64,000 bases of DNA. Origin: Pelagibacteraceae bacterium AG-464-P07 (GTDB taxonomy: Bacteria; Pseudomonadota; Alphaproteobacteria; Pelagibacterales; Pelagibacteraceae). Below the pieces are notes generated by a model, which made no database searches, was not told the origin of the DNA, and saw nothing but the letters and a program-made list of their open reading frames with translations. Both the position numbers and the translations under genes were made by a program. Positions 22,493 through 44,213 of this stretch are shown piece by piece; within the stretch, counting starts at the first letter, position 1, and the number at the start of each line of letters is the position of its first letter. The stretch spans positions 35,116 to 99,115 of the forward strand of contig QCSA01000001.1 of assembly GCA_003211695.1 (NCBI GenBank), written 5' to 3'.

Positions 22493-22514
22493 AAATTCTT
22501 AATATTTTATAATA

Positions 22515-22736
22515 TTACCACTCGGGAATATTATTTTTATATTCGTTAGCTCCATGTTTCTTTCTAGCTAACTTTTGATGTTCTTCATCTTCTCCGGTAG
22601 CTGTAGCAAAAGTCCACCAAAGCCAGTAAATAATACCAGCAATTACCCACCACAGTTCGGTTCCAACGTAAGGATAAATTTGTCCTGCCACCTCACTTGC
22701 GGTTAGATGATCAACCCAATTTGTTACTGTAGCCAT
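22515..22736 (-). CDS. Small (73 aa) Trp-rich single-pass membrane protein co-transcribed with amt
   Basis: The ATG at 22736 is preceded by AAGGAGGG with a 6-nt spacer, and this SD overlaps the amt stop codon. TM segment LWWVIAGIIYWLWWTF and a charged C-tail. Confidence 0.6.
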   Translation of the reverse strand: MATVTNWVDHLTASEVAGQIYPYVGTELWWVIAGIIYWLWWTFATATGEDEEHQKLARKKHGANEYKNNIPEW

Positions 22737-22749
22737 ATATATCCCTCCT

Positions 22750-29469: not shown

Positions 29470-30807
29470 CTAAGCCCAAGGAAACGGACTATGAGAAGTA
29501 GGATGTAATTGACCATTCGCGTAACGAGTGAATCTAAATGGTTTTAATAGTTCACTTTCTTTTTCAAGTATTTCTTCAGCAACAAGTTTTCCAACTCCTA
29601 ACATTTTATAACCATGGTTTGAGTCAGCGATAATGTAAACATTTTCACAAAATCGATCGAAGATTGGAAAATTATCTGGAGTAAAACAACCTAAACCACC
29701 CGATGGTACTCTATTATATAAATTTGATTTTCCTTCAAATCTTTTTTGGCAATGAGCTAGCGCGGAAGCCCACATATTGGCAAATTTTTCATCTGTTTGA
29801 TATTCCTTTGATGCTATTCCATAAGGATCAACATTTACTTGATCTAATGGTTTTTCAACTTTATACGGAGCAGTACCACCTTGGACACCAAGTGACTCAA
29901 CAATATCGGGCTTATAATAAATTCCCCACATTTTGTCTGTAATTAGGGATCCATCTACATCAGAATATAATGGTTCATTGCTATCAACATGAATAAGTGG
30001 AGGCATATCACCATTATCAGTTTTCAAAAAATCCATACCAACTTTCATTACCCCCTCTTGTAAAAACCAATATTTCCACATTGGTATGTCTTTATTAATT
30101 TCGCCAGTACCATTTTTTATATTTACTTTTTTTGGCAGTTCTAACATTTTCCATAAATTATTTATCCAAGGTCCAACAGCAATAATTACCTGTTCACATT
30201 CTATGATACCTTTTGATGTTTCCGCACCTGTTATTGCGTTACTATTACTTTCTTTTTTAAATCCAATGATTTCAACTCCTGTAATAATTTTTGCACCAGC
30301 CGCTTGTGCTTTTTTTGCTACTCCTTGTATTGCAATTTTACTTTTTGAATATCCTCCTCTTTTTTCATGTAAAATATTTGTAATTCCCTTTGCTTGCCAG
30401 TCGCTAAAAATTTTTTTCATGTAGACTGTACATTGTTTTTCACCTTCTATGAAATCTGATTCATATCCAATAGCTTTTTGTTGTTGATATACAGACTGCA
30501 TATCTTTTTTCATACTTTCAGGACTAATTGCCATAAAACCTACTGAATCATACGCAAAAGTTTTTGGGTCACTTTCCCAAACTTTAACACTATGTGCCAT
30601 TAGTTCTCTCATAGCAGGTTGAAAATAGTTGTTTCTAACAACTCCACAAGCGGTACCGCTAGCACCAGCTGCGATATCTGTTTTGTCTATGACAAGGACA
30701 TCGTCTTCTTTAAGACTGCCATTTTTATTTTTAAGTTTTTCTGCAAGATGCCAAGCGGTGCTCAAACCATGCACTCCGGCACCAATAATTAAGTATTTTG
30801 ATTTCAC
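29470..30807 (-). CDS. DAO-family FAD-dependent oxidoreductase, paralog 1 (first gene of the gmaS-mgs-amt operon)
   Basis: IIGAGVHGLSTAWHLA FAD fold; 445 aa; GTG start. About two-thirds identical (by eye) to ORF 38367-39716. Confidence 0.8.
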   Translation of the reverse strand: MKSKYLIIGAGVHGLSTAWHLAEKLKNKNGSLKEDDVLVIDKTDIAAGASGTACGVVRNNYFQPAMRELMAHSVKVWESDPKTFAYDSVGFMAISPESMKKDMQSVYQQQKAIGYESDFIEGEKQCTVYMKKIFSDWQAKGITNILHEKRGGYSKSKIAIQGVAKKAQAAGAKIITGVEIIGFKKESNSNAITGAETSKGIIECEQVIIAVGPWINNLWKMLELPKKVNIKNGTGEINKDIPMWKYWFLQEGVMKVGMDFLKTDNGDMPPLIHVDSNEPLYSDVDGSLITDKMWGIYYKPDIVESLGVQGGTAPYKVEKPLDQVNVDPYGIASKEYQTDEKFANMWASALAHCQKRFEGKSNLYNRVPSGGLGCFTPDNFPIFDRFCENVYIIADSNHGYKMLGVGKLVAEEILEKESELLKPFRFTRYANGQLHPTSHSPFPWA

Positions 30808-30812: not shown

Positions 30813-30890
30813 GATGATGAAAAAGAATTTGAGAGAATAAAATAATTTTTTTTATTACTAAAAAATATATATAAAAAAAATAAGTGAAAT
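30813..30890 (-). promoter_or_regulatory. Duplicated 78-nt leader/promoter element, copy A (upstream of flavoprotein paralog 1)
   Basis: Ungapped 63/78 match (hand count) to 37833-37910. It begins 5 nt from the start codon. Confidence 0.6.
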
Positions 30891-30925
30891 AGACTTATTT
30901 ATGTATAGCTTGATGCGATTGATTT

Positions 30926-32101
30926 ATGCCAAAATCAAATACATATAAAGCTGGGCGGCATTTTTTGCAGGTTCCTGGACCAACAAATCTTCCCGATCGA
31001 ATTCTACGTGCAATGAATCGTCCCGCAATAGACCATCGTGGTCCTCAATTTGCTGAATTATCAAAAAGAATCTTAGAGAGAATTAAATTAATATTTAAAT
31101 CAACAGACCCAGTCATAATTTGGCCTAGCTCAGGTACGGGTGCTATGGAAGCTTCAATAGTTAACACTTTAAATGAGGGAGATAAAGTTTTAATGTTTGA
31201 AACTGGACACTTTGCTACTGAATGGTGTCAAGCTGCACGAAGATATAATGTAAATGTTGATTTTGTTCCAGGAGATTGGAGGCATGGGGCAGATCCAAAA
31301 ATAGTCGAACAAAAATTACTTGCCGATAAAAAACATGAAATTAAAGCTGTATTAGTTACTCATAATGAAACTTCTACAGGGATAGCGAGTAGAGTAGAGG
31401 AAATAAGAAATGCAATCGATAACGCAAAACACCCAGCATTATTTATGGTGGATACGATTTCTTCTTTAGGTTCGTTTAATTATGATCACAAGAAATGGAA
31501 AGTAGATGTTTCTGTGGGAGGATCACAGAAAGGTCTAATGTTACCCCCAGGACTGTCTTTTAATGCAGTTAGTCATAAAGCACTGGAGGCATATAAAAAT
31601 TCAAAACTTCCAAAATCATATTGGCATTGGGGTCAAATGCTAGAAAATAATAAAAACGGTTTTTATCCTTATACGCCTGCTGTGAATATTTTGTATGGAT
31701 TAAATGAATCAATAAATATGTTGATGGAAGAAGGCCTTGACAATGTCTTTGCCAGGCATGCCAGGCATGCAGAAGCAACTAGAATAGCAGTTCAGGCTTG
31801 GGGATTAGAAATACTTGCTAAAAATCCTGAAGAACGTTCAAATTCAATAACAGCAATTTTGATTCCAGACGGACATGATTCAGATAATTTACGAAAAATA
31901 ATTTACGATAATTATGACATGTCTCTAGGAACTGGACTTGCCAAAGTGAAGGGGAAAGTTTTTAGGATTGGTCATGTTGGAGACTTTAATGATTTGATGC
32001 TTGCAGGTACTCTTGCTGGGGTAGAAATGGGTTTAAAACAATCAGGTATACCTTTCAAGCCAGGAGGTATAATGGCTGCTCTAGATTTTCTTTCAAAATA
32101 A
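30926..32101 (+). CDS. sga: Serine-glyoxylate aminotransferase (class V, AGXT family)
   Basis: Close resemblance to Methylobacterium SgaA as recalled: VPGPTN.PDR, HEIKAV.V.HNETSTG, GGSQKGLMLPPGL, GKVFRIGHVGD. Confidence 0.85.
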   Translation: MPKSNTYKAGRHFLQVPGPTNLPDRILRAMNRPAIDHRGPQFAELSKRILERIKLIFKSTDPVIIWPSSGTGAMEASIVNTLNEGDKVLMFETGHFATEWCQAARRYNVNVDFVPGDWRHGADPKIVEQKLLADKKHEIKAVLVTHNETSTGIASRVEEIRNAIDNAKHPALFMVDTISSLGSFNYDHKKWKVDVSVGGSQKGLMLPPGLSFNAVSHKALEAYKNSKLPKSYWHWGQMLENNKNGFYPYTPAVNILYGLNESINMLMEEGLDNVFARHARHAEATRIAVQAWGLEILAKNPEERSNSITAILIPDGHDSDNLRKIIYDNYDMSLGTGLAKVKGKVFRIGHVGDFNDLMLAGTLAGVEMGLKQSGIPFKPGGIMAALDFLSK

Positions 32102-32113
32102 TTATTGCAGCAG

Positions 32114-34834
32114 CTATCCTGTATTTTTCATTGCAGCAGCTATTCCTGCTATAGTTACCATCATAGCGTCCATTAATAATTTTTTATCTGCATTTCTTAA
32201 ATTAGTTGCTTTTAGTTTTTTCATTACATCGGCTTGCAATAAATTTAATGTTTCGGCATATATATTTCTAATTCTTATTGATTCTCTATATGATTTGCGT
32301 TGTTCTAAAATATATTTTGGTATCAAAGTTTTATTTATATGAATTAATGATAACAATTGTTTTCTAAGTTTATTACCGATATTTTGCAATTCTTTGTCAC
32401 CAAGGCATTCTTCATAAAATTGAATTACCCGTAGATCGGTTTTTGTTAACACCATATCTAACATATCCATCATTGCATAAAAAAAATGCCACTTATTTAA
32501 CATATCTTTTAGTATAACTTTATTTTTTCCTATTTTAGCTAATTCTAAACCCTCAAAAGTTCCTAACCAAGCGGGTAAAATAAAACGAATTTGAGTCCAA
32601 GAAAACACCCAAGGTATCGCTCGCAAGTTTTTTATTTCATCACCTTTTTTTCTCTTAGTTGGCCTTGAACCAATTGATAATTGGTCCAAAATTTTCTGAG
32701 GAGTGATTGTTCTGTAATATCTCAAAAAATTAGGATCATGTATGCGACTACGATACGCTGTGCTGGCAGCTTCACTCATATCATTCATCAATCCACGCCA
32801 GCTTTTTTTAGGTCGAGTAGGAGGTATCAAGGTCGCTTCTAATACCGAGGATATATAGGTACCAAGCGTGTGTTCAGCTAATGATTCTGTACTATATTTT
32901 TGTTGAATGATTTCTCCTTGTTCAGTTACGCGCGTTCTTCCATTAACAGTACCTGGCGGTTGGGATAATAATGCTGAATAAATAGGTCCGCCCCCTCGAC
33001 CAACTGATCCACCGCGACCGTGAAACAAAGTTAATTTTACTTTATGTTTATCCGAAACCGATTGTAAATTTTCCTGAGCTTTATATTGAGCCCAACTCGC
33101 TGCAAGCTTTCCAGCATCTTTGCTTGAATCAGAGTAGCCGATCATTACTTCTTGATAACATTTAAATTTTTTTAAATACCAGGAAATATTGTACAAAGAT
33201 TTTATTATTTGATGAGAGTTTTGAAGATCAGATAAAGTTTCAAATAATGGAACAACACGCAAATAGGTTTTTATTCCTGATTCTTTTTGAAGAAACACCA
33301 CAGCCAAAATATCAGAAACATTGGAAGCCATAGAAATAATGTAAGCTCCTAAACATTCTTGTGGTAATTTTGCTATCATTTGAAAAGTAGCCCACACTTC
33401 TTTATCTTCTTTATCCAATACTATATTTTTAGGAATTAAAGAGCGTTTGGATTTGAAATGTTTAGATAAAAAAGAGATTTTTTCTTCTTCTGACCATTCC
33501 TGATAATTGCCTAAGCCCAAACGTAGACAAATATTTTTTAGTAGCTTTCCATGTCGACTAGCCTCTTGACGAATGTCTAATTTTGCTAAATTTAAACCAA
33601 AACAATGTGCTCGTCTCAACAAATCTAACACAGAACCATTAGCAATAGATTCGCACTTAACATCGCAAAGAGAATTGTAAACTATATTTAACGGTTGAAT
33701 GACTTCGTTAATTGATCGAACTAAATATGGTTCGTTTAAAACTTTTCTATTATTTAAATGTAGCTCAATCAATCTTTGGGTATTTTTCATTTTATCCCGA
33801 ATGGGTCTTAAAAAAACTCTATATGGCTCTGAGCTATTACCAACTTTATCTAGAAGGGTTTTGGAACATTCGTGAAGTGACAAATTTCGTATTAATTTCG
33901 TAAGTTCTTTTTCATATAAATTAGCTGCCATCCATCTAGACAACAAAACAACTTCTTCGGTAATTTTTGATGTTACGCTAGAATTACCGTCACGATCTCC
34001 GCCCATCCAAGACCCGAATGTAATTGGAGAAAAATTAATTGGTAAACGTTTACCTACATAATTTAGTATAGCTTGATCAAAATAAGAACAAATTTTTGGT
34101 AACGCATTCCATAAACTATCCTCAATAATTGCCAATCCCCACTTTGCCTCATCTATGGGCGTTGGTTTAGATCGTTTTAACTCATCAGTTTTCCATATGG
34201 ATGTAATTTCTTCATGGAGACTTTCTTCCAATAATTTTGCTTCACGATCAACATTTTTTTTTGTAAAAATTCTTAAATTAACAAATCTTTCTAAAATGTT
34301 ATTTATATGTTTAAATTTATGTATAAGCGTTCTTCTTTTAACTTCCGTTGGATGTGCAGTTAAAACTAATTCGATTTTTAATTTTTTAACGGTTTGAAAA
34401 AATTTCTTTTTGGAAATAGATTTATTTTTTATTAGACGATCTATAGCTTCATCTAAAATAACAAGTTCATTTGTTCCTTGGGCTTTGCGAACGTCAAGAT
34501 TATGTATTTTGTGAACACTATAAAGCGATTCTGCTAAATTAGAAAAATTTAAAAATTGACTAAAAGACCGAGATATTACTAATGACTCTCGATAACTTAA
34601 CTTACGAATATTTGATTTTAATTGACGAAACTTTTTTGTCTCATTCAATCTTATTTTTTTCTTGCTCTTTTTGCCTCTGCTTGTCTTTGATAAAAGTCTA
34701 ATTTTTTCAATTTTATTAAAAAAAGAAATACCCTCTTGTTCTTTAATGACTAGTCCTAATATTTTTCCCAGTAAATGAACAATTTTAGAAAGTTTAAAAA
34801 TTGCTAGGTTTTTGTATTTAGTTTTTTTTACCAT
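32114..34834 (-). CDS. ppc: Phosphoenolpyruvate carboxylase
   Basis: VLTAHPTE, GSWMGGDRDGN, GYSDSSKDAG, FHGRGGSVGRGGGP and the C-terminal ...MKNTG. Confidence 0.93.
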   Translation of the reverse strand: MVKKTKYKNLAIFKLSKIVHLLGKILGLVIKEQEGISFFNKIEKIRLLSKTSRGKKSKKKIRLNETKKFRQLKSNIRKLSYRESLVISRSFSQFLNFSNLAESLYSVHKIHNLDVRKAQGTNELVILDEAIDRLIKNKSISKKKFFQTVKKLKIELVLTAHPTEVKRRTLIHKFKHINNILERFVNLRIFTKKNVDREAKLLEESLHEEITSIWKTDELKRSKPTPIDEAKWGLAIIEDSLWNALPKICSYFDQAILNYVGKRLPINFSPITFGSWMGGDRDGNSSVTSKITEEVVLLSRWMAANLYEKELTKLIRNLSLHECSKTLLDKVGNSSEPYRVFLRPIRDKMKNTQRLIELHLNNRKVLNEPYLVRSINEVIQPLNIVYNSLCDVKCESIANGSVLDLLRRAHCFGLNLAKLDIRQEASRHGKLLKNICLRLGLGNYQEWSEEEKISFLSKHFKSKRSLIPKNIVLDKEDKEVWATFQMIAKLPQECLGAYIISMASNVSDILAVVFLQKESGIKTYLRVVPLFETLSDLQNSHQIIKSLYNISWYLKKFKCYQEVMIGYSDSSKDAGKLAASWAQYKAQENLQSVSDKHKVKLTLFHGRGGSVGRGGGPIYSALLSQPPGTVNGRTRVTEQGEIIQQKYSTESLAEHTLGTYISSVLEATLIPPTRPKKSWRGLMNDMSEAASTAYRSRIHDPNFLRYYRTITPQKILDQLSIGSRPTKRKKGDEIKNLRAIPWVFSWTQIRFILPAWLGTFEGLELAKIGKNKVILKDMLNKWHFFYAMMDMLDMVLTKTDLRVIQFYEECLGDKELQNIGNKLRKQLLSLIHINKTLIPKYILEQRKSYRESIRIRNIYAETLNLLQADVMKKLKATNLRNADKKLLMDAMMVTIAGIAAAMKNTG

Positions 34835-35711
34835 TTAAAACTGATTTTACCGTCTCACCCATTACAGATGGATTTTTAGAGATTGTCACACCACATTCCT
34901 TTAAAAGTTCGACTTTTTCAACAGCACTTTCTCCATAGGCTGAAACAATCGCTCCGGCGTGACCCATTACTCTTCCGATAGGGGCTGTCAATCCAGCTAT
35001 ATAAGCTATCACTGGTTTTGACATATTTTCTTTTGCAAATTTACCTGCTGCGACTTCCTGAGGTCCTCCTATCTCACCAATCATCAATATGGCTTTGGTT
35101 TGATCGTCTTGTTCAAATTTTTCCAAAATATCTCTAAATGAACATCCATTAATTGGATCTCCTCCAATGCCAACGCTAGTTGAGATACCTATATTTAAAT
35201 TTTTCATTTGTTGTGCCGCTTCATATCCAAGTGTACCCGATCGTCCAATAACACCAACTTTGCCTTGCGTATAAATATGTCCCGGCATAATTCCTAACAG
35301 AGATTTTCCAGGACTGATAACGCCAGCACAATTCGGACCTATTAATGTCATTTTATCTTTTTTAGAATATCTCCTCATATAACGTTTAATTTTAATCATA
35401 TCATGAGAAGGAATTCCGTCGGTAATTGCTACGCATGTTTTAATTCCGGCATCCGCTGCTTCCATTGCAGAATCTGCCGCAAACTCTGGTGGAACAAACA
35501 GAATAGTACAAAAAGCATCTGTTTTTTTTACTGCTTCTTTTACAGTATTAAAAACTGGTAAATCTAGGTGTGTTTGTCCTCCTTTACCAGGAGTTACTCC
35601 ACCAACAATATTAGTACCATATTTAATCATCTCTTTTGCATGGAAAGAGCCAAACTTACCAGTAAAACCTTGAACTATTATTTTTGTTTTCTTATCAATT
35701 AATATAGACAT
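34818..35711 (-). CDS. mtkB: Malate-CoA ligase (malate thiokinase) alpha subunit, SucD-like
   Basis: CoA-ligase alpha motifs (VQGFTGKFGSFH, GPNCAGVISPG, GHAGAIV). It shares one base (TAATG) with mtkA and its context is mcl/ppc. Confidence 0.78.
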   Translation of the reverse strand: MSILIDKKTKIIVQGFTGKFGSFHAKEMIKYGTNIVGGVTPGKGGQTHLDLPVFNTVKEAVKKTDAFCTILFVPPEFAADSAMEAADAGIKTCVAITDGIPSHDMIKIKRYMRRYSKKDKMTLIGPNCAGVISPGKSLLGIMPGHIYTQGKVGVIGRSGTLGYEAAQQMKNLNIGISTSVGIGGDPINGCSFRDILEKFEQDDQTKAILMIGEIGGPQEVAAGKFAKENMSKPVIAYIAGLTAPIGRVMGHAGAIVSAYGESAVEKVELLKECGVTISKNPSVMGETVKSVLNGKKN

Positions 35712-36886
35712 TAATTTTTCCCCAATTCTTTAAGAGCCTTAACCGCTTTATTTGCTGCATCTTCTAAAGTTGAGGCTTCAATGTAATTTATTTTTCTTTC
35801 TTTTAAAATTTTATTGCCCTTTTCTACGTTTGTACCTGCTAAACGTATTACAAGAGGCATATTAATTTCTATTTTTTGTAAAGCTTGAACTATTCCTTCA
35901 GCAACCCAGTCGCATCTATTTATACCAGCAAAAATATTTACTAAAATAACTTTCACTTTTTCATCTTGAGAAATTAATTTAAACGCTTTAACCATTTTTT
36001 CAGGACTAGCACCTCCACCAACATCAAGAAAGTTTGCAGGTTCTCCTCCAGCTAATTTAATCATATCCATAGAAGCCATTGCTAAACCCGCTCCATTAAT
36101 TATGTTGCCGATATTACCTTCAAGACTTATGTAATTAAGTCCTCTATCTGATGCATAAACTTCGTTTAGATTTTCTTGGGCCTTATCTCTTAGTTCAGAT
36201 ATCTGACTTCTACGAAATAACGCATTGTTGTCAAAACTCATTTTACAATCGAGAGCTAAAATGTGTTCATCTTTTGATATTACTAGTGGATTAATTTCTA
36301 CCATGGTAGCATCCAATTCACTGAAGGCACGGCAACATCCCATAATTGCGTCAGCCGTTCTAGAAATAAGTTTAGGATCGATACCCAAACCAAAAGCAAT
36401 CTCTCTTGCTTGAAATCTTTGCATTCCAACGGCAACTTCTATTTTTGATCTAATTATACTTTCGGGCTTCTTTTTAGAAATTTCTTCTACACTCATACCG
36501 CCTTCTGTTGAAGCAACCACCATTATACACTCAGAAGCACGATCGAAAACTAATCCTAGATATAATTCTTTTTTAATATCCGTCACTTCTTCAATATAAA
36601 CTCTATGAACGATTTTACCTTGTGGACCTGTTTGTTTTGTAACTAATTTTTTTCCAAGTAATTTGTCAGCCGCTTGGGCAACCTCTATTTTACTATTACA
36701 AATTATAATTCCGCCCGCTTTTCCTCTTGCTCCAGAATGAATTTGGGCTTTAACAACCCATTTCGATCCACCAATTTCACGAGCTTTATATTCTGCATTT
36801 TCTGGACTATATGCAATGGCGCCACGAGGAATATTTATACCAAAACCGGAAAGTATTTTTTTTGCTTGATATTCATGAATGTCCAT
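35711..36886 (-). CDS. mtkA: Malate-CoA ligase (malate thiokinase) beta subunit, SucC-like
   Basis: MDIHEYQAKK start (the ATG at 36886 is preferred over the ORF-track start at 36955). FQAREIAFGLG, MSFDNNALFRR and NIFAGINRCDWVAEG resemble Methylobacterium MtkA rather than SucC, from memory. Confidence 0.8.
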   Translation of the reverse strand: MDIHEYQAKKILSGFGINIPRGAIAYSPENAEYKAREIGGSKWVVKAQIHSGARGKAGGIIICNSKIEVAQAADKLLGKKLVTKQTGPQGKIVHRVYIEEVTDIKKELYLGLVFDRASECIMVVASTEGGMSVEEISKKKPESIIRSKIEVAVGMQRFQAREIAFGLGIDPKLISRTADAIMGCCRAFSELDATMVEINPLVISKDEHILALDCKMSFDNNALFRRSQISELRDKAQENLNEVYASDRGLNYISLEGNIGNIINGAGLAMASMDMIKLAGGEPANFLDVGGGASPEKMVKAFKLISQDEKVKVILVNIFAGINRCDWVAEGIVQALQKIEINMPLVIRLAGTNVEKGNKILKERKINYIEASTLEDAANKAVKALKELGKN

Positions 36887-36887
36887 T

Positions 36888-37826
36888 TCACTTGCTCCCA
36901 ATAAGTTTATTAATATTAACAATATTTTCTGCCATGCGAGCTGAAGCTGCGTCAATCATTCTTCCATCTAATTGTGCTGCACCTTTTCCTTCTTTTGCGG
37001 CTTTGTCTAGTTCTTCAAGAATTTTTTTTGCTCTATTAACTTCTGCAGCCGGTGGCGAAAATACTTTATTTGCAAGATCAATTTGAGAAGGATGTATTGC
37101 CCATTTACCCTCTATACCGATTGCAGCTGCTCTTTTTGCTGATGCTACATATGCGTCAGGATCCTTAAAATCACCGAAGGGACCATCAATTGCTCTTAGC
37201 CCATAAGCTCTACACGTCATTACTAACTGTGACAAACCGTGATGCCATTGATCACCTGGGTAATCTGGGTTCAGCCCACCAATTACAACAGTTCTTGCTC
37301 TTAAGCTTGCTGCATAGTCTGCCACTCCAAAATGAAGTGCTTCTAATCGATTACTAGATTTTGCTATCTCTTTAATGTTTGACATACCTAAAGCAGTTTC
37401 AATTAAACATTCTATTCCAACTTTATTTTTAAATTTTTTTTGATTTTCAATTTGAGTTAATAGACAATCAACTGTGTAGATATCGCTGTCTGTTCCAACT
37501 TTTGGAACTAAAATAGTATCAATTTTATCACCAACCTGTTCCATTATGTCAACCACATCACGATACATATAGTGTGTATCCAAGCTGTTAATTCGAACTG
37601 AAATAGTTTTGCCTCTTTCTCTCCAATTAATTTCATTAAGCGCTTTAATTATATTTTCACGAGCTGATAGCTTATCATTTGGCGAGACAGCGTCTTCAAG
37701 ATCTAGAAAGATATAATCTGCATTTGAATTTAGAGCCTTTTCAAACATTTTTGGAGATGAACCAGGAACAGCTAATTCACTCCTTTGCAAACGCGTTCTT
37801 GCAGGATTATAATATTGATGACTCAT
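36888..37826 (-). CDS. mcl: Malyl-CoA lyase (HpcH/CitE-like)
   Basis: RSELAVPGS, IFLDLEDAV, NSLDTHYMYRDVVDI, FGVADYAAS and GKWAIHPSQIDLAN closely resemble MclA as recalled. Confidence 0.85.
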   Translation of the reverse strand: MSHQYYNPARTRLQRSELAVPGSSPKMFEKALNSNADYIFLDLEDAVSPNDKLSARENIIKALNEINWRERGKTISVRINSLDTHYMYRDVVDIMEQVGDKIDTILVPKVGTDSDIYTVDCLLTQIENQKKFKNKVGIECLIETALGMSNIKEIAKSSNRLEALHFGVADYAASLRARTVVIGGLNPDYPGDQWHHGLSQLVMTCRAYGLRAIDGPFGDFKDPDAYVASAKRAAAIGIEGKWAIHPSQIDLANKVFSPPAAEVNRAKKILEELDKAAKEGKGAAQLDGRMIDAASARMAENIVNINKLIGSK

Positions 37827-37832
37827 AATTTT

Positions 37833-37910
37833 GATGATGAAAAAAAATTGTAATAGATAAAATATTTTTTTTTAGAACTAATAAATATATATAAAAAAAA
37901 TAAGCATTAT
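37833..37910 (-). promoter_or_regulatory. Duplicated 78-nt leader/promoter element, copy B (upstream of mcl)
   Basis: Ungapped 63/78 match to 30813-30890. It begins 6 nt from the mcl ATG. Confidence 0.6.
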
Positions 37911-37931: not shown

Positions 37932-38321
37932 TTAACCGCTTAGATTTTTAAGAGTAACAAGGTAATCATTAAATTCACTAACAAATTTAATACTTGGTTT
38001 AATAAATTTTTTTCTCATATCACTTGATGTTTTTTCTAAATAAAAAAAACCCTTTTCACACGCTTCATTAATTATCAAAGCAGATTTAGGCCTTGATGTT
38101 TTAAATAATTTTGTCTTCAATTCTTCCACTGATAAGTTTTTTTTATTATAGTGAGCTGTCATGACCAACAACATCATGTGATAATGCGAAGGTGATTTTC
38201 TAAAAAAATAGTTACTGGAAGTATGAGCTTTTCTCATTTGCTGCTCCCAAAACATTAGAAGAGATTTGGTATTTTTTATCATTAAGTGAAGTGTATAATA
38301 AACGTCTAAACCCGGAAACAA
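37932..38321 (-). CDS. Possible MarR-like winged-helix regulator
   Basis: Small ORF of 116-129 aa, depending on the start. LSVEELKTKL...ALIINEACEKGFFYLEKTSSDMRKKFIKPS looks like HTH plus wing (D.R...). The assignment is by pattern only. Confidence 0.4.
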   Translation of the reverse strand: MFPGLDVYYTLHLMIKNTKSLLMFWEQQMRKAHTSSNYFFRKSPSHYHMMLLVMTAHYNKKNLSVEELKTKLFKTSRPKSALIINEACEKGFFYLEKTSSDMRKKFIKPSIKFVSEFNDYLVTLKNLSG

Positions 38322-38366: not shown

Positions 38367-39716
38367 TTAGCTCCAAGGAAAGGGGCTATGAGAAGTGGGA
38401 TGCAATTGACCCTTTTCGTATCGATTAAATCTAAAAGGTTTTAATAATTCAGTTTCCTTATTTTCTAAAATTTCTTCTGCTACAAGTTCTCCAACTCCTA
38501 TCATTTTATAACCATGGTTTGAGTCAGCGATAATATAAACGTTTTCGCAAAATCGATCAAAAATAGGAAAAGAATCTGGAGTGAAACATCCTAATCCTCC
38601 AGAAGGACCTTTTTTATATACATTTATTTTTCCTTTAAATCTTTTTTGGCAATGGGCTAATGCAGAACACCACATATGTGCAAATTCGTCACCTGTTTGA
38701 TGATCTTCCGAATCTACTCCATAAGGGTCTACTTTTACATCACCAGTTGGTTTGTTGATTTTATATGGTGCAGCTCCTCCTTGAACTCCATTAAAATTAA
38801 AATCTGGCTTATAGTATATTCCCCACATTTTATCGGTTATTAAGGATCCATCTACATCTGAAAATAAATGTGCATCGCTATCGACATGAATTACCGGTGG
38901 CATTTTACCAGCATCCGTTTTTTGAAAATTTGGATCAACCCCAAGAACGCCTTCTGTCAGAAACCAATATATCCACATTGGGTAATCTTTGTGTATTTTA
39001 CCTTTTTCATCTTTGATTGAAATTTTTTTTGGAAGTTCAAGCTTATCCCATAAACCTTTGATCCATGGACCGGCCCCAACGATTACATGCTCACAATCAA
39101 TAGTACCCTTTGAAGTTACTACGCCAGTCACAGACTTACTGTTACTTCCTTTCCTAAAACCTGTGACTTTAGTGCCTGTTAAAATTCTTACTCCAAAACT
39201 TTCAGCCTTATTAGCCAATCCATAGATTGAAGCGGTGTTGTTAGCATATCCACCTTTTTTTTCATGTAAGATAGAAGTTATTCCTTTAGCCTGCCAATCA
39301 TGAAATATATTTTTCATGTATTTCGTAGAATCTTCTCTCCCTTCAATAAATTCAGATTCATAACCAATAGCTTTTTGTTGTTCGTAGATGCTTGAAATAT
39401 CTTTATGCATGCTTTCGGGACTTATTTGCATGTAACCAACAGGATGATAGTTAAAATTTTTTGGATCACTTTCCCAAATTTTTACACTGTGCATCATGAG
39501 TTCTCTCATGGCGGGTTGAAAGTAATTGTTTCTTACTACACCACAGGCGATACCACTTGCACCAGATGCAATTCCTCCTTTATCGATAACTACAATATCG
39601 TTGTTAATACCATTTCCATTCTTTTTCTTAAGTTTTTCTGCAAGATGCCAAGCGGTACTTAAACCATGTATTCCAGCTCCAATAACAACAAATCTTGCCT
39701 TCTTTGGAAACGCCAT
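38367..39716 (-). CDS. DAO-family FAD-dependent oxidoreductase, paralog 2 (translationally coupled to tdm)
   Basis: VIGAGIHGLSTAWHLA FAD fold; 449 aa. The ATG lies 2 nt after the tdm stop codon. Paralog of 29470-30807. Confidence 0.8.
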   Translation of the reverse strand: MAFPKKARFVVIGAGIHGLSTAWHLAEKLKKKNGNGINNDIVVIDKGGIASGASGIACGVVRNNYFQPAMRELMMHSVKIWESDPKNFNYHPVGYMQISPESMHKDISSIYEQQKAIGYESEFIEGREDSTKYMKNIFHDWQAKGITSILHEKKGGYANNTASIYGLANKAESFGVRILTGTKVTGFRKGSNSKSVTGVVTSKGTIDCEHVIVGAGPWIKGLWDKLELPKKISIKDEKGKIHKDYPMWIYWFLTEGVLGVDPNFQKTDAGKMPPVIHVDSDAHLFSDVDGSLITDKMWGIYYKPDFNFNGVQGGAAPYKINKPTGDVKVDPYGVDSEDHQTGDEFAHMWCSALAHCQKRFKGKINVYKKGPSGGLGCFTPDSFPIFDRFCENVYIIADSNHGYKMIGVGELVAEEILENKETELLKPFRFNRYEKGQLHPTSHSPFPWS

Positions 39717-39717
39717 A

Positions 39718-42057
39718 TTAAGATTTTACTCTTAGTTTTTCAGGATCGTAAAAAGGAAATTTAACTACTTTTGCTCCAATTCTTTTTTGATGACCGTCAA
39801 TTTTACCAACCTCTACATTTGTACCTATGTCAGAATATTTAATATCCATTCTACAAAGTGCAATATTTTTGTTTAGAGTAGGGGATATCATTCCACTAGT
39901 TATTACACCAACAGTAGCTCTTCCCACGTGTACACCATCTCCATTACTAGCTTGTTCTTTACCAATTAATTCTAAACCAACAAGTTTTTTTTGTGGAGAT
40001 TCTTTTCTTTTTATCAAAGTATCTTTACCTACAAAATCATCTTCTTTAGTTTTCAGCGCGACAGAAAATCCAATGCCAGCTTCAAAGGGATCTGTTTGAT
40101 CGTTAAATTCGTATCCATAAAATATAAGTCCAGCTTCAATTCTTACCATGTCCAAACCTTCTAAACCCATTGGAGTAATGCCTAAATCTTTTCCTGAATC
40201 CCAAACTTTATCCCAAATTTTAGAAGCATCATTGGGATGACACCAAATTTCAAAACCAAGTTCACCTGTATAACCTGTTCTTGATACAATAATCGGTGTA
40301 CCTATATGATCATCAATTCTAGCAATAGAAAACCTAAACCATTGAAGTTCATTTATCTTTGCTTGTGCAGGTGGAGTCCAAACAAATTTTTCTAAAATTT
40401 TTCTACTATTTGGTCCCTGAACTGAAATATTATGAATTTGATCAGTTGAAGATTTTACCCAAACTTTATATTTTTTTTTCTTAGCTAATTCTCTAAGCCA
40501 TGTACCGCCATATTCTTGGCCACCAATCCAACGGAAATTATCTTTACCTAGACGAAAAATTGTTCCATCGTCGATCATGCAGCCGTTGTCATAGCACATG
40601 GCTGAATAACTAACTTGTCCTATTGAAAGTTTTTTTACATTTCTTGTAAGAGCATACTGCATTAGATTTTCAGAGTCTGGACCCATAATTTCAAATTTTC
40701 TTAGGGGAGATAAATCAATTGCGATAGCCTTTTCTCTGCACGCTGTATATTCGTTGATGGTTCCATAATTTGTATAGTTATTGGCTAACCAATAACCATT
40801 ATAATCAATAAAATTTCTGGTAAGCTTGGATGTTTTTTTGTGGAATCCAGTTTCTTTTGTTAATTTTGGTTCTGAATCTTCTTTCATTCTAAACGCTATA
40901 GCTTTCGAGTATTTTTGTTCTTTAGGATAAGTTCTAACAAATATATCGGTTGGATTCCATCCATTTGCTGGATCAACATCGCATGGGCAAGCAGAAGAAG
41001 CGCACACTAAATCTTTTGTTGCTCTAAATAAAACATAATCTCCTGGTCTAGACCACGGCTCATCAAAAGATGCAATATTTAGTTGATTAATACTTGTATT
41101 AAAAAAAAGATTAATAGCAGTCCAACCTTTTCTTGATTTCACTTCATATTTTTTTAAAGCTTTATTAAAATTTTCTGAGCAATTTATATGACCAAAGTAA
41201 CCCATATCTTCATAGTATTTCGCAGTACATGCATAATTAAAAGTATCATGTCTACCAACAGTGTCTCTGACAACTTCAATCATTGGGTCATGGTCCATAT
41301 CAAAAAATTTTGAAAATAAACCAGGCACTGGATAAGCAGCTCCCATAAATGTACGAGTGGCCGTAGCATCAATTATACTTTCAATTCTTTTATCAAGTTT
41401 TGCTTTGTCAAAAGCTAAAAAATCTGAACACTGTCTTCCCGCAGGATCTATGATTTGAATGTATTCTCCTGCTTTTACTTCATAAGTATAAGCAGTACGT
41501 CTTTTAATAAGTTTTTCGTTTAAAGGGTCACTTAAAGGCTCTGGCAAAACAAATTGCTCTCCATTATTATTATCATCAAATTTAGATTTATTTAAAAGAA
41601 CAGTTAAATCAGTTGGAGGATTTTGATTATGAATGTTCATAGCTTCGCCAGGAGCAGCAAGCATAACTGTGCATTTATCTTTAGATTTTAAAATTATTTT
41701 TTCATCTATTTGACAATCTTTATCAAATATTGTTGAGGATTTTGCCTTAGTAAGATCAAATTTTTTTCTTTTAAATAATTTTGTAATTTTTTCATCATTT
41801 AAGATTGTTTTTTTTGAAAAACTAGCATCCGAGTTTTCTTTTAAATTTAATAATGATAGATCACATTTACCTTTAGAATTAAAAACAACAACTTCACATG
41901 TTTGTTTGCCTTCATCGTTAATTATTTCTAATTTATCTTCTGGCAAAACTTCTATAACTGATAAACCTCCACCTCTAACAAAATACCTTTCAACTCCTGG
42001 TGGTAAAGTCCTTAAGCCAGGATTTCTTATATCTAAACTAGTTGATATGTTTTCCAT
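39718..42057 (-). CDS. tdm: Trimethylamine N-oxide demethylase (DUF1989 domain fused to GcvT-like aminomethyltransferase domain)
   Basis: About 779 aa. The N-terminal DUF1989-like half and C-terminal GcvT fold (TGYTGELGFEIW, RIEAGL) match the architecture described for Tdm. Divergent from tmoX. ATG at 42057. Confidence 0.85.
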   Translation of the reverse strand: MENISTSLDIRNPGLRTLPPGVERYFVRGGGLSVIEVLPEDKLEIINDEGKQTCEVVVFNSKGKCDLSLLNLKENSDASFSKKTILNDEKITKLFKRKKFDLTKAKSSTIFDKDCQIDEKIILKSKDKCTVMLAAPGEAMNIHNQNPPTDLTVLLNKSKFDDNNNGEQFVLPEPLSDPLNEKLIKRRTAYTYEVKAGEYIQIIDPAGRQCSDFLAFDKAKLDKRIESIIDATATRTFMGAAYPVPGLFSKFFDMDHDPMIEVVRDTVGRHDTFNYACTAKYYEDMGYFGHINCSENFNKALKKYEVKSRKGWTAINLFFNTSINQLNIASFDEPWSRPGDYVLFRATKDLVCASSACPCDVDPANGWNPTDIFVRTYPKEQKYSKAIAFRMKEDSEPKLTKETGFHKKTSKLTRNFIDYNGYWLANNYTNYGTINEYTACREKAIAIDLSPLRKFEIMGPDSENLMQYALTRNVKKLSIGQVSYSAMCYDNGCMIDDGTIFRLGKDNFRWIGGQEYGGTWLRELAKKKKYKVWVKSSTDQIHNISVQGPNSRKILEKFVWTPPAQAKINELQWFRFSIARIDDHIGTPIIVSRTGYTGELGFEIWCHPNDASKIWDKVWDSGKDLGITPMGLEGLDMVRIEAGLIFYGYEFNDQTDPFEAGIGFSVALKTKEDDFVGKDTLIKRKESPQKKLVGLELIGKEQASNGDGVHVGRATVGVITSGMISPTLNKNIALCRMDIKYSDIGTNVEVGKIDGHQKRIGAKVVKFPFYDPEKLRVKS

Positions 42058-42139
42058 GTGAAACAAATAGTATATCAGAGATTAATTATGTGCAATTGGC
42101 ATTGACTCGCAAAAAATGAGCACATAGACTTTGGTTAAG

Positions 42140-42153
42140 TAATGTTAACATTA
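42140..42153. promoter_or_regulatory. Perfect 14-bp palindrome TAATGTTAACATTA in the tdm/tmoX divergent control region
   Basis: Self-complementary by inspection; 22 nt upstream of the tmoX ATG. Confidence 0.35.
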
Positions 42154-42175
42154 ATTAATTATGGGAGAAAAATAC

Positions 42176-43148: not shown

Positions 43149-43186
43149 TCTCCCCTAGTTTTAATAACTAGGGGGGATTTTTTTTT
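43149..43186 (+). terminator. Intrinsic terminator after tmoX
   Basis: 12-bp stem TCTCCCCTAGTT / AACTAGGGGGGA (one G-U pair) with a 5-nt loop, followed by T9. Confidence 0.85.
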
Positions 43187-43202
43187 AGTTTTGGTGTAAT
43201 TT
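43170..43202 (+). repeat. 33-nt direct repeat, left copy (terminator right arm + T9 + AGTTTTGGTGTAATTT)
   Basis: 31/33 identical to 44181-44213 by hand alignment. Confidence 0.8.
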
Positions 43203-44162: not shown

Positions 44163-44180
44163 AGCGTTTATGAAATAAAT

Positions 44181-44213
44181 AGGGAGGATTTTTTTTTAGT
44201 TTTAGTGTAATTT
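44181..44213 (+). repeat. 33-nt direct repeat, right copy (immediately upstream of tmoW)
   Basis: AGGGAGGA + T9 + AGTTTTAGTGTAATTT. It lacks the left arm of the hairpin seen at copy 1. Confidence 0.8.

What the first reader, a model, noticed from the sequence alone, without database searches (positions are those of the whole stretch)
30813..37910. 78-nt leader element duplicated in front of two different operons
**The match.**
- 30813-30890 (upstream of flavoprotein paralog 1) and 37833-37910 (upstream of mcl) align without gaps.
- I count 63 of 78 identities by hand.
- The core is about 40/44: AATAWTTTTTTTTTA..ACTAA.AAATATATATAAAAAAAATAAG.

**Position relative to the genes.**
- Both copies begin with GATGATGA, 5 and 6 nt from their respective start codons.
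- On the coding strand each gene is therefore preceded by ...TTTTTCATCATC plus 5-6 nt and then the start codon.

**Interpretation.** AT-richness inflates chance similarity. An ungapped, start-codon-anchored match of this length in only these two spacers still looks like a shared promoter or 5'-UTR. It could be a regulator binding site or a cis-acting RNA coupling the methylamine operon to the mcl-mtkAB-ppc operon.
Basis: seen in the sequence. Interest (0 to 1): 0.65.

Follow-up and report, generated by a model that had tools for sequence, protein, structure and literature searches.

The report
Duplicated promoter-leader in SAR11 methylamine locus
A 78-base AT-rich stretch in front of two operons of a SAR11 marine bacterium is a real duplication of the conserved upstream control region (probably promoter plus short leader) of its methylamine-oxidation operon. 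The second copy would put a glyoxylate/C1-assimilation operon under the same control.

Summary
**Observation.** It is confirmed. 30813-30890 and 37833-37910 match without gaps at 63/78 positions. The local score is 39, against 9.8 ± 1.4 (maximum 19) in 1000 shuffles.

**What it is.**
- The window is from a SAR11 (Pelagibacteraceae) methylated-amine locus.
- The element, called E here, is not a structured RNA, a mobile element or a terminator.
- Its core is T-run, TATATAT, TTTTAG, A-run. It lies once per locus upstream of the flavoprotein (DAO)-gmaS-mgsABC operon in dozens of SAR11 relatives.
- By gene order, that flavoprotein corresponds to SAR11_1304, one of the two genes most induced by nitrogen limitation in HTCC1062.
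- The hexamer before TTTTAG varies as TATAAT, TATAAA or TATATT, as a -10 box would. The leader is about 52 nt long, has no predicted stable structure and has no clear Shine-Dalgarno sequence.

**The duplication.**
- Only the window's own lineage has two good copies: the window, L166 with both, and four contigs that each reach one copy. The two copies flank the sga-ppc-mtkBA-mcl cassette as direct repeats.
- The order is exactly what integration of a circular cassette by recombination at E would produce.
- Both copies are conserved in that clade, with 54 of 78 columns invariant.

**Neighbouring gene.** The adjacent 116-aa gene has a MarR/SarA-like predicted fold and is a candidate regulator.

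**Verdict.** Real, probably a shared promoter-leader. It is an ordinary kind of feature but a useful lead. Transcription starts and protein binding are untested.

The parts
30813..30890 (-). Copy 1 of element E. It is read on the - strand towards flavoprotein gene DAO1. Its far end lies 35 nt from the divergent sga start codon.
   Evidence: core HMM hit 30885-30841, E = 4.8e-5; orthologous copies in L163, L164, L166
37833..37910 (-). Copy 2 of element E. It is read on the - strand towards mcl and lies 21 nt downstream of the stop codon of the MarR-like gene.
   Evidence: core HMM hit 37904-37861, E = 8.8e-6; identical or near-identical copies in L162, L161, L166
30864..30869 (-). -10-like hexamer TATATT of copy 1. 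It is followed by TTTT and then AG (30859/30858), the inferred transcription start.
   Evidence: Read from the sequence. The same position in relatives holds TATAAT, TATAAA, TATATT, TATACT or TATAGT. The transcription start has not been measured.
37884..37889 (-). -10-like hexamer TATATT of copy 2, with a possible -35 TTAATA at 37913-37908. It is followed by TATT and then AG (37879/37878), the inferred transcription start.
   Evidence: Promoter scan: TTAATA-18-TATATT, 9/12 matches
30873..30880 (-). T8 tract (on the - strand) directly upstream of the (AT)4 core of copy 1. The matching tract of copy 2 is at 37893-37900.
   Evidence: invariant or nearly so in 8 copies
30846..30853 (-). A8 tract (on the - strand) at about +7 to +14 of the inferred transcript of copy 1. 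Copy 2 has an A9 tract at 37865-37873.
30813..30824 (-). Proximal box TTTTTCATCATC (on the - strand), 5 nt before the GTG of DAO1. The same box lies at 37833-37844, 6 nt before the ATG of mcl. There is no clear Shine-Dalgarno sequence.
   Evidence: TTTTT(C/A)AT(C/T)AT is kept in all 8 copies of the clade
29470..30807 (-). DAO1, an FAD-dependent amine-oxidase-like flavoprotein with a GTG start. It is the first gene of DAO1-gmaS-mgsA-mgsB-mgsC-(136 aa)-amt, which runs down to 22750.
   Evidence: Pfam PF01266; NCBIfam soxB-like, below cut-off; 69% identical to DAO2; GTG start and short N-terminus shared with L163, L164, L166
30926..32101 (+). sga-like class V aminotransferase (glyoxylate aminotransferase type), divergent from DAO1. 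Its promoter must overlap copy 1.
   Evidence: Pfam PF00266; best NCBIfam match BhcA, 453 bits, below cut-off; its spacer is collinear with the sga-E spacers of L001, L094, L096
32114..37826 (-). mcl-mtkA-mtkB-ppc operon: mcl 36888-37826, mtkA 35711-36955, mtkB 34818-35711, ppc 32114-34834.
   Evidence: Pfam HpcH_HpaI, ATP-grasp_2/Ligase_CoA, CoA_binding/Ligase_CoA, PEPcase
37932..38282 (-). A 116-aa protein with a MarR/SarA-like winged-helix predicted fold ('u129'). It is a candidate regulator and lies directly upstream of copy 2.
   Evidence: No Pfam, NCBIfam or PDB sequence hit; more than 5300 homologs of about 116 aa; AlphaFold2 pLDDT 76; nearly all of the top 50 Foldseek PDB hits are MarR/SarA-family regulators
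38367..42066 (-). tdm (39718-42066, TMAO demethylase) followed by DAO2 (38367-39716), upstream of u129.
   Evidence: NCBIfam NF053776 equivalog, 1151 bits, above the cut-off of 1100; Pfam

Best explanation
**What the element is.** E is the upstream control module of the SAR11 methylamine-oxidation operon (flavoprotein DAO, gmaS, mgsABC).
- It is most likely a sigma-70-type core promoter: a T-tract, then a -10 hexamer TATATT, then a start at the A/G of TTTTAG. This is inferred.
- It is followed by a leader of about 52 nt that is A/U-rich, has no predicted stable structure and has no clear Shine-Dalgarno sequence. The leader runs to within 5-6 nt of the start codon.

**What happened in this lineage.**
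- The module exists twice, as direct repeats that bracket the sga / ppc-mtkB-mtkA-mcl cassette. This is shown.
- Copy 2 sits where E sits in ordinary SAR11 genomes, just downstream of the small MarR-like gene, but now drives mcl-mtkAB-ppc.
- Copy 1 has the sga-side flank seen in genomes where E drives mcl, but now drives DAO1-gmaS-mgsABC.
- The simplest origin is one homologous recombination at E. A circularised or imported cassette [E-mcl-mtkA-mtkB-ppc-sga] would recombine with a chromosome carrying [u129-E-DAO-gmaS]. This is inferred.

**Consequence (inferred).**
- Both operons receive the same promoter and leader. Production of a glyoxylate/glycine acceptor (malate thiokinase, malyl-CoA lyase, PEP carboxylase, glyoxylate aminotransferase) would then be switched on together with release of C1 units and ammonium from methylated amines.
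- The likely signal is nitrogen limitation or methylamine supply.
- Because copy 1 lacks a recognisable -35, the promoter probably depends on a protein factor. The adjacent MarR/SarA-like protein is the obvious candidate.
- The (AT)4 core may also serve the divergent sga gene as a back-to-back -10.
For: **The duplication is real**

**Source organism**
- The window is SAR11. Its mcl is 83-89% identical to those of Pelagibacteraceae single-cell and metagenome-assembled genomes.

**One copy per locus in relatives**
- A 20-sequence core HMM was searched over 160 fetched loci and hit only SAR11 loci, at most once each.
- The hit lies 33-67 nt upstream of DAO. In the sga-containing loci L001 and L094 it lies between sga and mcl and points to mcl. 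The window alone gave two hits in that search.
- The six closer contigs L161-L166 were fetched later and inspected by eye and by alignment. L166 also carries both copies.

**Promoter-like variation**
- In 25 of 38 copies the hexamer 4 nt before a conserved AG is TATATT (8), TATAAT (7), TATAAA (6), TATACT (2), TATAGT (1) or TATATA (1).
- From the AG to the start codon is 52-53 nt in every copy of the window's clade and 41-57 nt in most type A relatives.
- Copy 2 matches TTAATA-18-TATATT.

**No RNA structure**

**Both copies persist**
- L162, L161 and L166 carry u129-E-mcl. L163, L164 and L166 carry E-DAO1.
- In the 8-copy alignment, 54 of 78 element columns are invariant.
- Orthologous copies match at 65-78/78 and paralogous copies at 61-69/78.
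- Third-codon-position identity of the flanking DAO gene is 0.64-0.80.

**Flanks fit an exchange at E**
- The sga side of copy 1 aligns with the sga-E spacers of L001, L094 and L096.
- The u129 side of copy 2 is collinear with the u129-E spacers of the common arrangement.

**Physiology**
- By gene order (tmoX, tdm, flavoprotein, glnT, ..., amt) DAO corresponds to SAR11_1304 (PMC3160333).
- SAR11_1304 is the second most induced gene under nitrogen limitation in HTCC1062. Its protein was detected only in N-limited cells (PMC3870248).

**Candidate regulator**
- u129 has a MarR/SarA-like predicted fold.
Against: - No transcription start, expression or binding data exist for this genome. The -10 and start assignment rests on sequence pattern alone, in DNA where TATA-like hexamers are common.
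- Copy 1 has no acceptable -35, whereas the tmoX promoter nearby is canonical TTGACT-17-TAGACT.
- Copy 2 has no terminator upstream, so mcl could also be read through from tdm-DAO2-u129.
- The single-crossover model does not by itself explain why the two copies share the proximal box TTTTTCATCATC right up to both start codons. It also does not explain the extra DAO2 gene.
- The locus is rearranged in many ways in relatives, so other histories are possible.
- Identity of the whole copy 1 spacer between relatives is similar inside and outside E, so constraint is not specific to E at short evolutionary distance.
- The correspondence to SAR11_1304 is by gene order only.
Confidence: 0.6

Rival explanations
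1. E is chiefly an operator. The conserved AT-rich core is the binding site of the adjacent MarR/SarA-like 116-aa protein (or of NtrX). The duplication extends that regulator's regulon to mcl-mtkAB-ppc. This overlaps with the best explanation rather than excluding it.
For: - u129 has a MarR/SarA-like predicted fold, and SarA-type proteins bind AT-rich DNA (the binding preference is from general knowledge).
- u129 ends about 30 nt upstream of E in the common SAR11 arrangement and at copy 2.
- In one group of relatives (L093, L099, L108, L081, L082) the core is a perfect 20-bp palindrome T6(AT)4A6.
- Copy 1 lacks a -35, which suggests dependence on a factor.
Against: - In the window and most relatives the core is not palindromic. 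The T8 and A8 tracts are 19 nt apart, with the asymmetric TTTTAGT between them.
- No E-like site lies in the tdm-tmoX spacer that heads the operon encoding u129.
- In several arrangements u129 is separated from E by the cassette.
- No binding data exist.
Confidence: 0.25
2. The second copy is only a scar of recombination. The direct repeats are left over from insertion or rearrangement of the cassette at E. Copy 2 has no regulatory role, and mcl is expressed by read-through from tdm-DAO2-u129.
For: - The repeats exactly bracket the sga...mcl cassette.
- The locus is a hot spot of rearrangement.
- There is no terminator between u129 and mcl.
Against: - Copy 2 is retained at 70-78/78 identity in L161, L162 and L166, whose flanking DNA is 84-96% identical.
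- It keeps the same invariant boxes as copy 1.
- Paralog divergence (81% identity) shows the duplication is old, yet the copy has not decayed.
- The differences between the copies fall at positions that also vary among relatives.
Confidence: 0.1
3. E is a structured cis-regulatory RNA (a riboswitch or attenuator) in the 5'-UTR of both operons.
For: - SAR11 relies heavily on riboswitches (PMC2704228, PMC3870248).
- In HTCC1062 the SAR11_1304 protein changed far more than its mRNA (PMC3870248).
- A U8/A8 pairing is possible.
Against: - Minimum free energies are -4.6 and -2.4 kcal/mol, and the z-score of copy 2 is +0.2.
- RNAalifold on 8 copies gives -1.5 kcal/mol with 0 compensatory pairs.
- Rfam gives no family at gathering score and only noise at E up to 10.
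- If transcription starts at TTTTAG, the U8 arm is not transcribed at all.
Confidence: 0.03
4. E is a mobile-element end, an attachment site or a dispersed repeat (MITE-like), or the match is chance similarity of AT-rich spacers.
For: Direct repeats flank a 7-kb cassette.
Against: - Chance is excluded.
- There is no integrase or transposase in the cassette and no tRNA in the window.
- No further copies occur in the window or in about 160 loci beyond the one per SAR11 locus.
- A 27-mer of the core has no match in viral contigs.
- The repeats are 81% identical rather than the near-identical copies expected of a recent integration.
Confidence: 0.02

Closest known systems
Sigma-70 promoters of AT-rich bacteria with a strong -10, T-rich upstream DNA and a weak or absent -35 (for example Campylobacter and Helicobacter; general knowledge)
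   Same: A TATAnT hexamer is preceded by a T-tract. A purine start lies about 5-6 nt downstream. Copy 1 has no recognisable -35.
   Different: - No transcription start has been mapped here.
- SAR11 does use canonical -35/-10 promoters nearby (tmoX: TTGACT-17-TAGACT). E would therefore be a special, probably factor-dependent, promoter rather than the organism's norm.
Bidirectional promoters built on a symmetric -10 element (Warman et al. 2021, Nature Microbiology; recalled, not read here)
   Same: - The (AT)4 core is symmetric.
- The far end of E lies 33-64 nt from a divergent gene's start codon: sga at copy 1, and mcl or sga in relatives.
   Different: This is inferred from positions only. Copy 2 has no divergent gene, only the 3' end of u129.
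TmaR-dependent promoters of the trimethylamine catabolic cluster in Ruegeria pomeroyi (PMC13390433)
   Same: One control logic is shared by several operons of methylated-amine catabolism, including gmaS-mgs. Induction depends on a downstream catabolite.
   Different: - TmaR is an AraC-type activator. No AraC-type gene is evident among the genes scanned (about 20.9-45.3 kb of the window).
- The candidate here is a 116-aa MarR/SarA-like protein with no Pfam family.
- The target set here includes mcl-mtkAB-ppc.
QscR control of the serine-cycle operons sga-hpr-mtdA-fch and mtkA-mtkB-ppc-mcl in Methylobacterium extorquens (general knowledge)
   Same: Serine-cycle-type genes (sga, mtkAB, ppc, mcl) are co-ordinated with C1 oxidation.
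   Different: - In M. extorquens a LysR-type activator binds different promoters.
- Here coordination would come from physically copying one promoter-leader module.
- The gene order differs (mcl first).
MarR/SarA-family repressor-operator pairs
   Same: A small winged-helix protein is encoded next to an AT-rich site that overlaps a -10-like box.
   Different: - The protein matches by predicted fold only (12-20% identity).
- The site in the window is not a clear palindrome.
- The regulator gene is co-directional and upstream, not divergent.

Membership tests
Sigma-70-type promoter | A -10 hexamer close to TATAAT, with A at position 2 and T at position 6 | tested here: met
   TATATT in both copies. 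The same position in relatives holds TATAAT, TATAAA, TATATT, TATACT or TATAGT.
Sigma-70-type promoter | A -35 hexamer close to TTGACA, 16-18 bp upstream | tested here: inconclusive
   Copy 2 has TTAATA with an 18-bp spacer, 9/12 matches overall. Copy 1 has nothing acceptable on the - strand. The -35 position lies outside the duplicated segment.
Sigma-70-type promoter | A mapped primary 5' end 6-8 nt downstream of the -10 | not testable with these tools
   No transcript data exist for this genome. The HTCC7211 start-site table of PMC5069720 is not in the stored text.
Riboswitch / structured cis-regulatory RNA | A stable conserved secondary structure supported by covariation | tested here: not met
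   -2.4 to -4.6 kcal/mol; consensus fold -1.5 kcal/mol; 0 compensatory pairs
Riboswitch / structured cis-regulatory RNA | A match to a described RNA family | tested here: not met
   Rfam 15: 0 hits at gathering score and only sub-threshold noise at E up to 10
MarR-family operator | A MarR-family protein encoded next to the site | tested here: met
   At fold level only: pLDDT 76, and nearly all of the top 50 PDB hits are MarR/SarA-family regulators. No sequence-family match.
MarR-family operator | A (pseudo)palindromic site of about 16-20 bp overlapping the promoter | tested here: inconclusive
   A perfect T6(AT)4A6 palindrome occurs in one group of relatives. In the window only the (AT)4 is symmetric, and the T8 and A8 tracts are 19 nt apart.
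MarR-family operator | Demonstrated binding of the protein to the site | not testable with these tools
   Needs a gel shift or footprint.
Mobile element / attachment site | An integrase or transposase, terminal inverted repeats, a target tRNA, or dispersed copies | tested here: not met
Intrinsic terminator | A G+C-rich hairpin followed by a T-run | tested here: not met
   0 terminator-like sites in either spacer

The most novel reading that the evidence does not exclude
**The proposed circuit.** The 116-aa MarR/SarA-like protein is the unknown transcription factor for methylated-amine use in SAR11, a functional counterpart of TmaR in roseobacters. Its family has more than 5300 homologs and no Pfam family. 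E is its operator, combined with a bidirectional promoter.

**What this lineage did.** By copying E in front of mcl-mtkAB-ppc, and leaving sga divergent from the other copy, it has wired a serine-cycle-like route to methylamine oxidation. The route runs malate, malyl-CoA, glyoxylate, glycine, and then serine with CH2-THF. Methylamine carbon and nitrogen would then be assimilated into glycine and serine, the amino acids that SAR11 otherwise needs from outside.
Probability: 0.2. Interest if true: 0.7.

Novelty: new member of a known kind. Interest (0 to 1): 0.4.

Why it matters
- SAR11 is the most abundant bacterial clade of the surface ocean and has very few regulators. How it controls methylated-amine use is unknown. 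The roseobacter regulator TmaR was described only in 2026 (PMC13390433).
- This analysis pins down a conserved cis-element upstream of the flavoprotein that, by gene order, corresponds to the nitrogen-limitation-induced SAR11_1304.
- It names a candidate trans-factor: an uncharacterised small MarR/SarA-like family.
- It shows a natural 'promoter copy' that links methylamine oxidation to glyoxylate/C1-assimilation genes in one SAR11 lineage.
- If the co-regulation is real, some SAR11 populations may assimilate methylamine-derived carbon and nitrogen rather than merely oxidise it. That bears on marine carbon and nitrogen budgets and on methylamine flux to the atmosphere.
- As a sequence feature it is ordinary: a duplicated promoter-leader.

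Tried and rejected
- **Rfam.** The whole window at gathering score and both spacers at E up to 10 gave nothing but noise.
- **tRNA or attachment site.** No tRNA genes in the window.
- **A profile of just the two copies.** Searched against 80 mcl loci, it found no full copy elsewhere. A core-only profile built from relatives was needed.
- **Exact-protein look-ups.** DAO1 and mcl of the window are not on record.
- **Metagenome scan with DAO1.** The best hit was only 70% identical. Closer relatives came only through protein searches with u129 and DAO1 followed by contig look-ups.
- **Published start sites.** The HTCC7211 table of the Red Sea mdRNA-Seq paper is not in the stored part of the supplement.
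- **Literature.** Lidbury et al. 2014 is not held. No paper on mcl/mtk in SAR11 was found.
- **Leader peptide on the coding strand.** There is none.
- **Mini-ORF on the + strand.** MMKKNLRE* and MMKKNCNR* are present in both window copies, but the ATG is lost in L166 E1, so this is chance.
- **Simple inversion.** Deriving the window from the common 'mcl divergent from DAO' arrangement by one inversion does not reproduce the window's gene order (reasoned).
- **E-like site upstream of tdm/tmoX, amt or glutamine synthetase.** None found.
- **Viral origin.** A 27-mer of the core has 0 matches in viral contigs.
Full report
**1. The observation**

The two stretches are as described. On the + strand, 30813-30890 and 37833-37910 align without gaps at 63 of 78 positions. 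A 44-nt core is 40/44 identical and a 22-mer is identical.

Each copy begins with GATGATGA. Copy 1 lies 5 nt from the GTG of the flavoprotein gene (30807-30805). Copy 2 lies 6 nt from the ATG of mcl (37826-37824).

The window is 32% G+C, so chance had to be tested.
- The best ungapped local score of the two spacers is 39. In 1000 dinucleotide-preserving shuffles the mean is 9.8, the sd 1.4 and the maximum 19.
- Among all pairs of the 19 spacers of at least 30 nt, on both strands, this pair ranks first. The next pair scores 29 and is an unrelated duplicated spacer. All others score 13 or less.
- The identical 22-mer occurs nowhere else in the window, even with three mismatches allowed.

**2. 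Context**

Pfam and NCBIfam give this gene map for the - strand:
- TMAO demethylase tdm, 39718-42066 (equivalog, above cut-off)
- flavoprotein DAO2, 38367-39716
- a small ORF, 'u129'
- [copy 2]
- mcl, mtkA, mtkB, ppc, 37826 down to 32114
- sga-like aminotransferase on the + strand, 30926-32101
- [copy 1]
- flavoprotein DAO1, 29470-30807
- a gmaS-like glutamine-synthetase homolog, mgsA/B/C-like genes, a 136-aa ORF and an Amt transporter

DAO1 and DAO2 are 69% identical. The organism is a SAR11 bacterium: its mcl is 83-89% identical to those of Pelagibacteraceae single-cell and metagenome-assembled genomes.

**3. What the element is not**

*Not a structured RNA.*
- As RNA the 78-mers fold at -4.6 and -2.4 kcal/mol. 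Copy 2 is no better than shuffles, with a z-score of +0.2.
- The only recurrent pairing is U8 with A8.
- RNAalifold on eight copies from at least five assemblies gives -1.5 kcal/mol with no compensatory pair.
- Rfam finds nothing at gathering score and only noise at E up to 10.

*Not a terminator.* Neither spacer has a terminator-like site.

*Not a mobile element.* There is no tRNA, no integrase or transposase in the cassette, no dispersed copies and no match in viral contigs.

*Not a leader peptide.* The coding strand has no leader-peptide ORF. A mini-ORF on the opposite strand is not conserved.

**4. What relatives show**

I fetched 80 loci around mcl homologs from genomes and 80 loci around DAO homologs from metagenomes. 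I mapped the window's genes onto them.

SAR11 shows several arrangements, written here with DAO on the + strand:
- **(A)** The commonest: tmoX(-) tdm u129 [spacer] DAO gmaS mgsABC (136 aa) amt.
- **(B1)** tdm u129 | (ppc-) mtkB- mtkA- mcl- | [spacer] DAO. Here mcl is divergent from DAO.
- **(B2)** u129 | ppc- | [spacer] DAO.
- **(B3)** u129 | ppc- mtkB- mtkA- mcl- [spacer] sga+ DAO.
- In many other SAR11 genomes mcl-mtkAB sits elsewhere, behind hisE.

The region upstream of DAO carries a recognisable homolog of the window's element in all SAR11 arrangements with a free-standing DAO. Its form is ...TAT-(T-run)-TATATA-(A/T)(A/T)TTTTAGT..TA-(A-run)-T.ATAT....

I built a core HMM from 20 such sequences and searched it over the 160 loci and the window.
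- It hit only SAR11 loci, at most once each, and always in that spacer.
- In type A the hit lies about 30 nt after u129 and about 40 nt before DAO.
- In type B1 it lies 47-64 nt from the divergent mcl and 42-67 nt before DAO.
- In the B3 loci L094 and L001 it lies between sga (33 nt away) and mcl (134-137 nt away), pointing to mcl.
- It found nothing near tdm/tmoX, amt or glutamine synthetase.
- Only the window gave two hits in that search.

So copy 1 is the orthodox upstream region of the flavoprotein operon. The second copy in front of mcl is the unusual part.

**5. Closer relatives**

The public species representatives are too distant, so I searched with u129 and DAO1 proteins and looked up their contigs.
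- L162 (96% nt identity) carries tdm-u129-E-mcl with an E identical to copy 2.
- L161 (89%) carries DAO2-u129-E-mcl with two substitutions in E.
- L163, L164 and L166 carry E-DAO1-like genes (77-91% aa). They share the same GTG start and the same N-terminus, about four residues shorter than DAO2 and the DAO of more distant SAR11.
- L166 carries both copies: ppc, sga(-), E1, DAO, u129, E2, mcl.
- The DAO of L166 is a mosaic, DAO1-like in its first 150 codons or so and DAO2-like at the end. It is either a real recombinant or an assembly chimera of a window-like genome.

In the eight-copy alignment, 54 of the 78 element columns are invariant.
- Orthologous copies match at 65-78/78 and paralogous copies at 61-69/78.
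- Third-codon-position identity of the adjacent DAO gene is 0.64-0.80 for the same genome pairs.
- The duplication therefore predates this clade. Both copies have been kept, and there is no strong concerted evolution.

**6. Anatomy and most likely mechanism**

Read towards the genes, both copies are:

CTTA-T8-ATATATAT-TT(T/A)TTAGT-NN-T-A8/9-(T/A)TATTTTAT-[12 variable nt]-TTTTTCATCATC-5/6 nt-start

The hexamer that ends four bases before the conserved AG occurs in 25 of 38 copies as TATATT (8), TATAAT (7), TATAAA (6), TATACT (2), TATAGT (1) or TATATA (1).
- TATA is fixed and the last base is mostly T or A, while position 5 is free. This is how a -10 box varies.
- A purine 5-6 nt downstream, preceded by Ts, is how a start site looks.
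- The consensus scan reports TTAATA-18-TATATT for copy 2.
- Copy 1 has no acceptable -35, and the -35 position lies outside the duplicated segment.
- SAR11 does use canonical promoters: the tmoX promoter in the tdm-tmoX spacer is TTGACT-17-TAGACT, and the TTGACT hexamer with a comparable -10-like hexamer recurs in the relatives' spacers.

I therefore read E as three things:
- (i) a -10 plus T-tract core promoter that probably needs a factor;
- (ii) a start at about 30859/30858 and 37879/37878;
- (iii) a leader of 52-53 nt in all copies of this clade that is A/U-rich, has no predicted stable structure and has no clear Shine-Dalgarno sequence.

These three steps are inferred, not shown.

Copy 1 leaves only 35 nt before the divergent sga start codon. 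In B1 and B3 relatives the divergent gene starts 33-64 nt from E. The divergent promoter must therefore overlap E. The symmetric (AT)4 core could act as back-to-back -10 boxes (inference).

**7. Link to physiology**

In HTCC1062 the gene order is tmoX (SAR11_1302), the aminomethyltransferase now known as Tdm (1303), 'monomeric sarcosine oxidase' (1304), glnT (1305), ..., gltB2 (1308), ..., amt (1310) (PMC3160333, PMC3870248). This matches arrangement A, so DAO corresponds to SAR11_1304. That correspondence is by gene order only.

SAR11_1304 was the second most induced gene under nitrogen limitation. Its mRNA rose 2.3-fold and its protein was detected only in N-limited cells, while the downstream genes did not rise (PMC3870248). 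It has been discussed as a possible amine oxidase filling the missing dimethylamine step (PMC5520151).

E is thus the upstream region of a strongly regulated gene. In roseobacters the pathway is controlled by the AraC-type TmaR (PMC13390433). Nothing is known for SAR11.

**8. The neighbouring small protein**

u129 is really 116 aa (37932-38282).
- It has more than 5300 homologs of the same length and no Pfam, NCBIfam or PDB sequence match.
- An AlphaFold2 model (pLDDT 76) has the MarR topology of helices, a helix-turn-helix, a beta-wing and a C-terminal helix.
- Nearly all of the 50 best Foldseek matches in the PDB are MarR/SarA-family regulators, including PefR, SarX, Rot, MepR and MarR. E-values run from 2e-4 to 6e-3 and TM-scores from about 0.43 to 0.64.
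- Its gene ends about 30 nt before E in arrangement A and at copy 2.

This makes it the obvious candidate for the factor acting at E. However, the site in the window is not a clear palindrome, and no binding data exist.

**9. Origin of the duplication**

The repeats bracket exactly the cassette sga / ppc-mtkB-mtkA-mcl.
- The sga-side flank of copy 1 aligns with the sga-E spacers of the B3 loci, where E points to mcl.
- The u129-side flank of copy 2 is collinear with the u129-E spacers of arrangement A, where E points to DAO.
- The middle of copy 2 (TATTAGTTCTA) resembles type A elements such as L097. The middle of copy 1 (TTTTTTAGTAATA8) resembles B1 elements such as L087 and L002.

One crossover at E would give exactly the window's order, including the convergent ppc/sga junction. 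The partners would be a circular or imported [E-mcl-mtkA-mtkB-ppc-sga(-)] and a chromosome carrying [u129-E-DAO-gmaS]. A single inversion of the B arrangements does not give that order.

This model is an inference. It does not explain the shared proximal box up to both start codons, nor the extra DAO2.

**10. Verdict**

The finding is real.

In kind this is a duplicated promoter-leader module, which is ordinary. It has three points of interest:
- it defines the conserved control element of the flavoprotein gene that, by gene order, corresponds to the nitrogen-limitation-induced SAR11_1304;
- it nominates an uncharacterised MarR/SarA-like family as the regulator;
- it shows one SAR11 lineage coupling methylamine oxidation to glyoxylate/C1-assimilation genes.

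Scores: confidence in the main explanation is 0.6 and interest is 0.4.

Noticed in passing
window 43150-43200 and 44174-44211 (+): A second duplicated spacer segment, 35/38 identical: AATAAMTAGGGRGGATTTTTTTTTAGTTTTRGTGTAAT.
- The first copy is the 3' arm and T-run of a terminator-like hairpin after tmoX (CCCCTAGTT-TTAAT-AACTAGGGG followed by T9). It lies just upstream of a MORN-repeat ORF.
- The second copy, upstream of the ABC ATPase gene at 44228, lacks an obvious 5' arm.
   Followed up: partly
window 42067-42160 (tdm-tmoX divergent spacer): A canonical promoter for tmoX, TTGACT-17-TAGACT. The TTGACT hexamer and a TATGT(T/G)C motif recur in SAR11 relatives. In the window the motif forms an inverted repeat, TATGTGC-N26-GCACATA. 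This site is different from E and may be another operator.
   Followed up: partly
window 37932-38282 (-): The 116-aa ORF belongs to a large family (more than 5300 homologs, all about 116 aa) with no Pfam or NCBIfam model. Its predicted fold is MarR/SarA-like.
   Followed up: yes
window 29470-30807 (-), and L163, L164, L166: DAO1 starts with GTG and is about four residues shorter at the N-terminus than DAO2 and the DAO of more distant SAR11. The same start is kept in relatives, and L165 has ATG at that position. DAO1-type genes are rare: the best match in the metagenome contig collection is only 70% identical.
   Followed up: partly
L166:1412-2749: The flavoprotein gene is a mosaic, DAO1-like in codons 1 to about 150 and DAO2-like at the 3' end. 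It is flanked by sga-E1 and u129-E2-mcl. This fits a circle or tandem junction from recombination between DAO1 and DAO2, or an assembly chimera. The contig has 2x coverage and its 3' end runs into an unrelated efflux-pump-like sequence.
   Followed up: partly
L001:5700-5815 (also L094, L096): In genomes where E points to mcl with a leader of about 135 nt, the leader contains an 11-bp hairpin, AAAAAGAGTGC...GCACTCTTTTT. It lies about 25 nt before a GGAG Shine-Dalgarno sequence and the mcl start codon. It may be an attenuator or regulatory stem, and it is absent from the window.
   Followed up: no
window about 22400-22740 (-): A small ORF below the 100-aa threshold used lies directly downstream of amt. 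It has a strong Shine-Dalgarno sequence (AAAGGAGGG) and is followed by a clear terminator (GGGCGCTGG-TTTTA-CCAGCGCCC followed by T9). It looks like a small membrane protein.
   Followed up: no
window 35711-36955 against 36888-37826 (-): The longest mtkA ORF (TTG start) overlaps the end of mcl by 68 nt. In relatives mtkA starts a few nt after mcl, so the real start is probably the downstream one.
   Followed up: no
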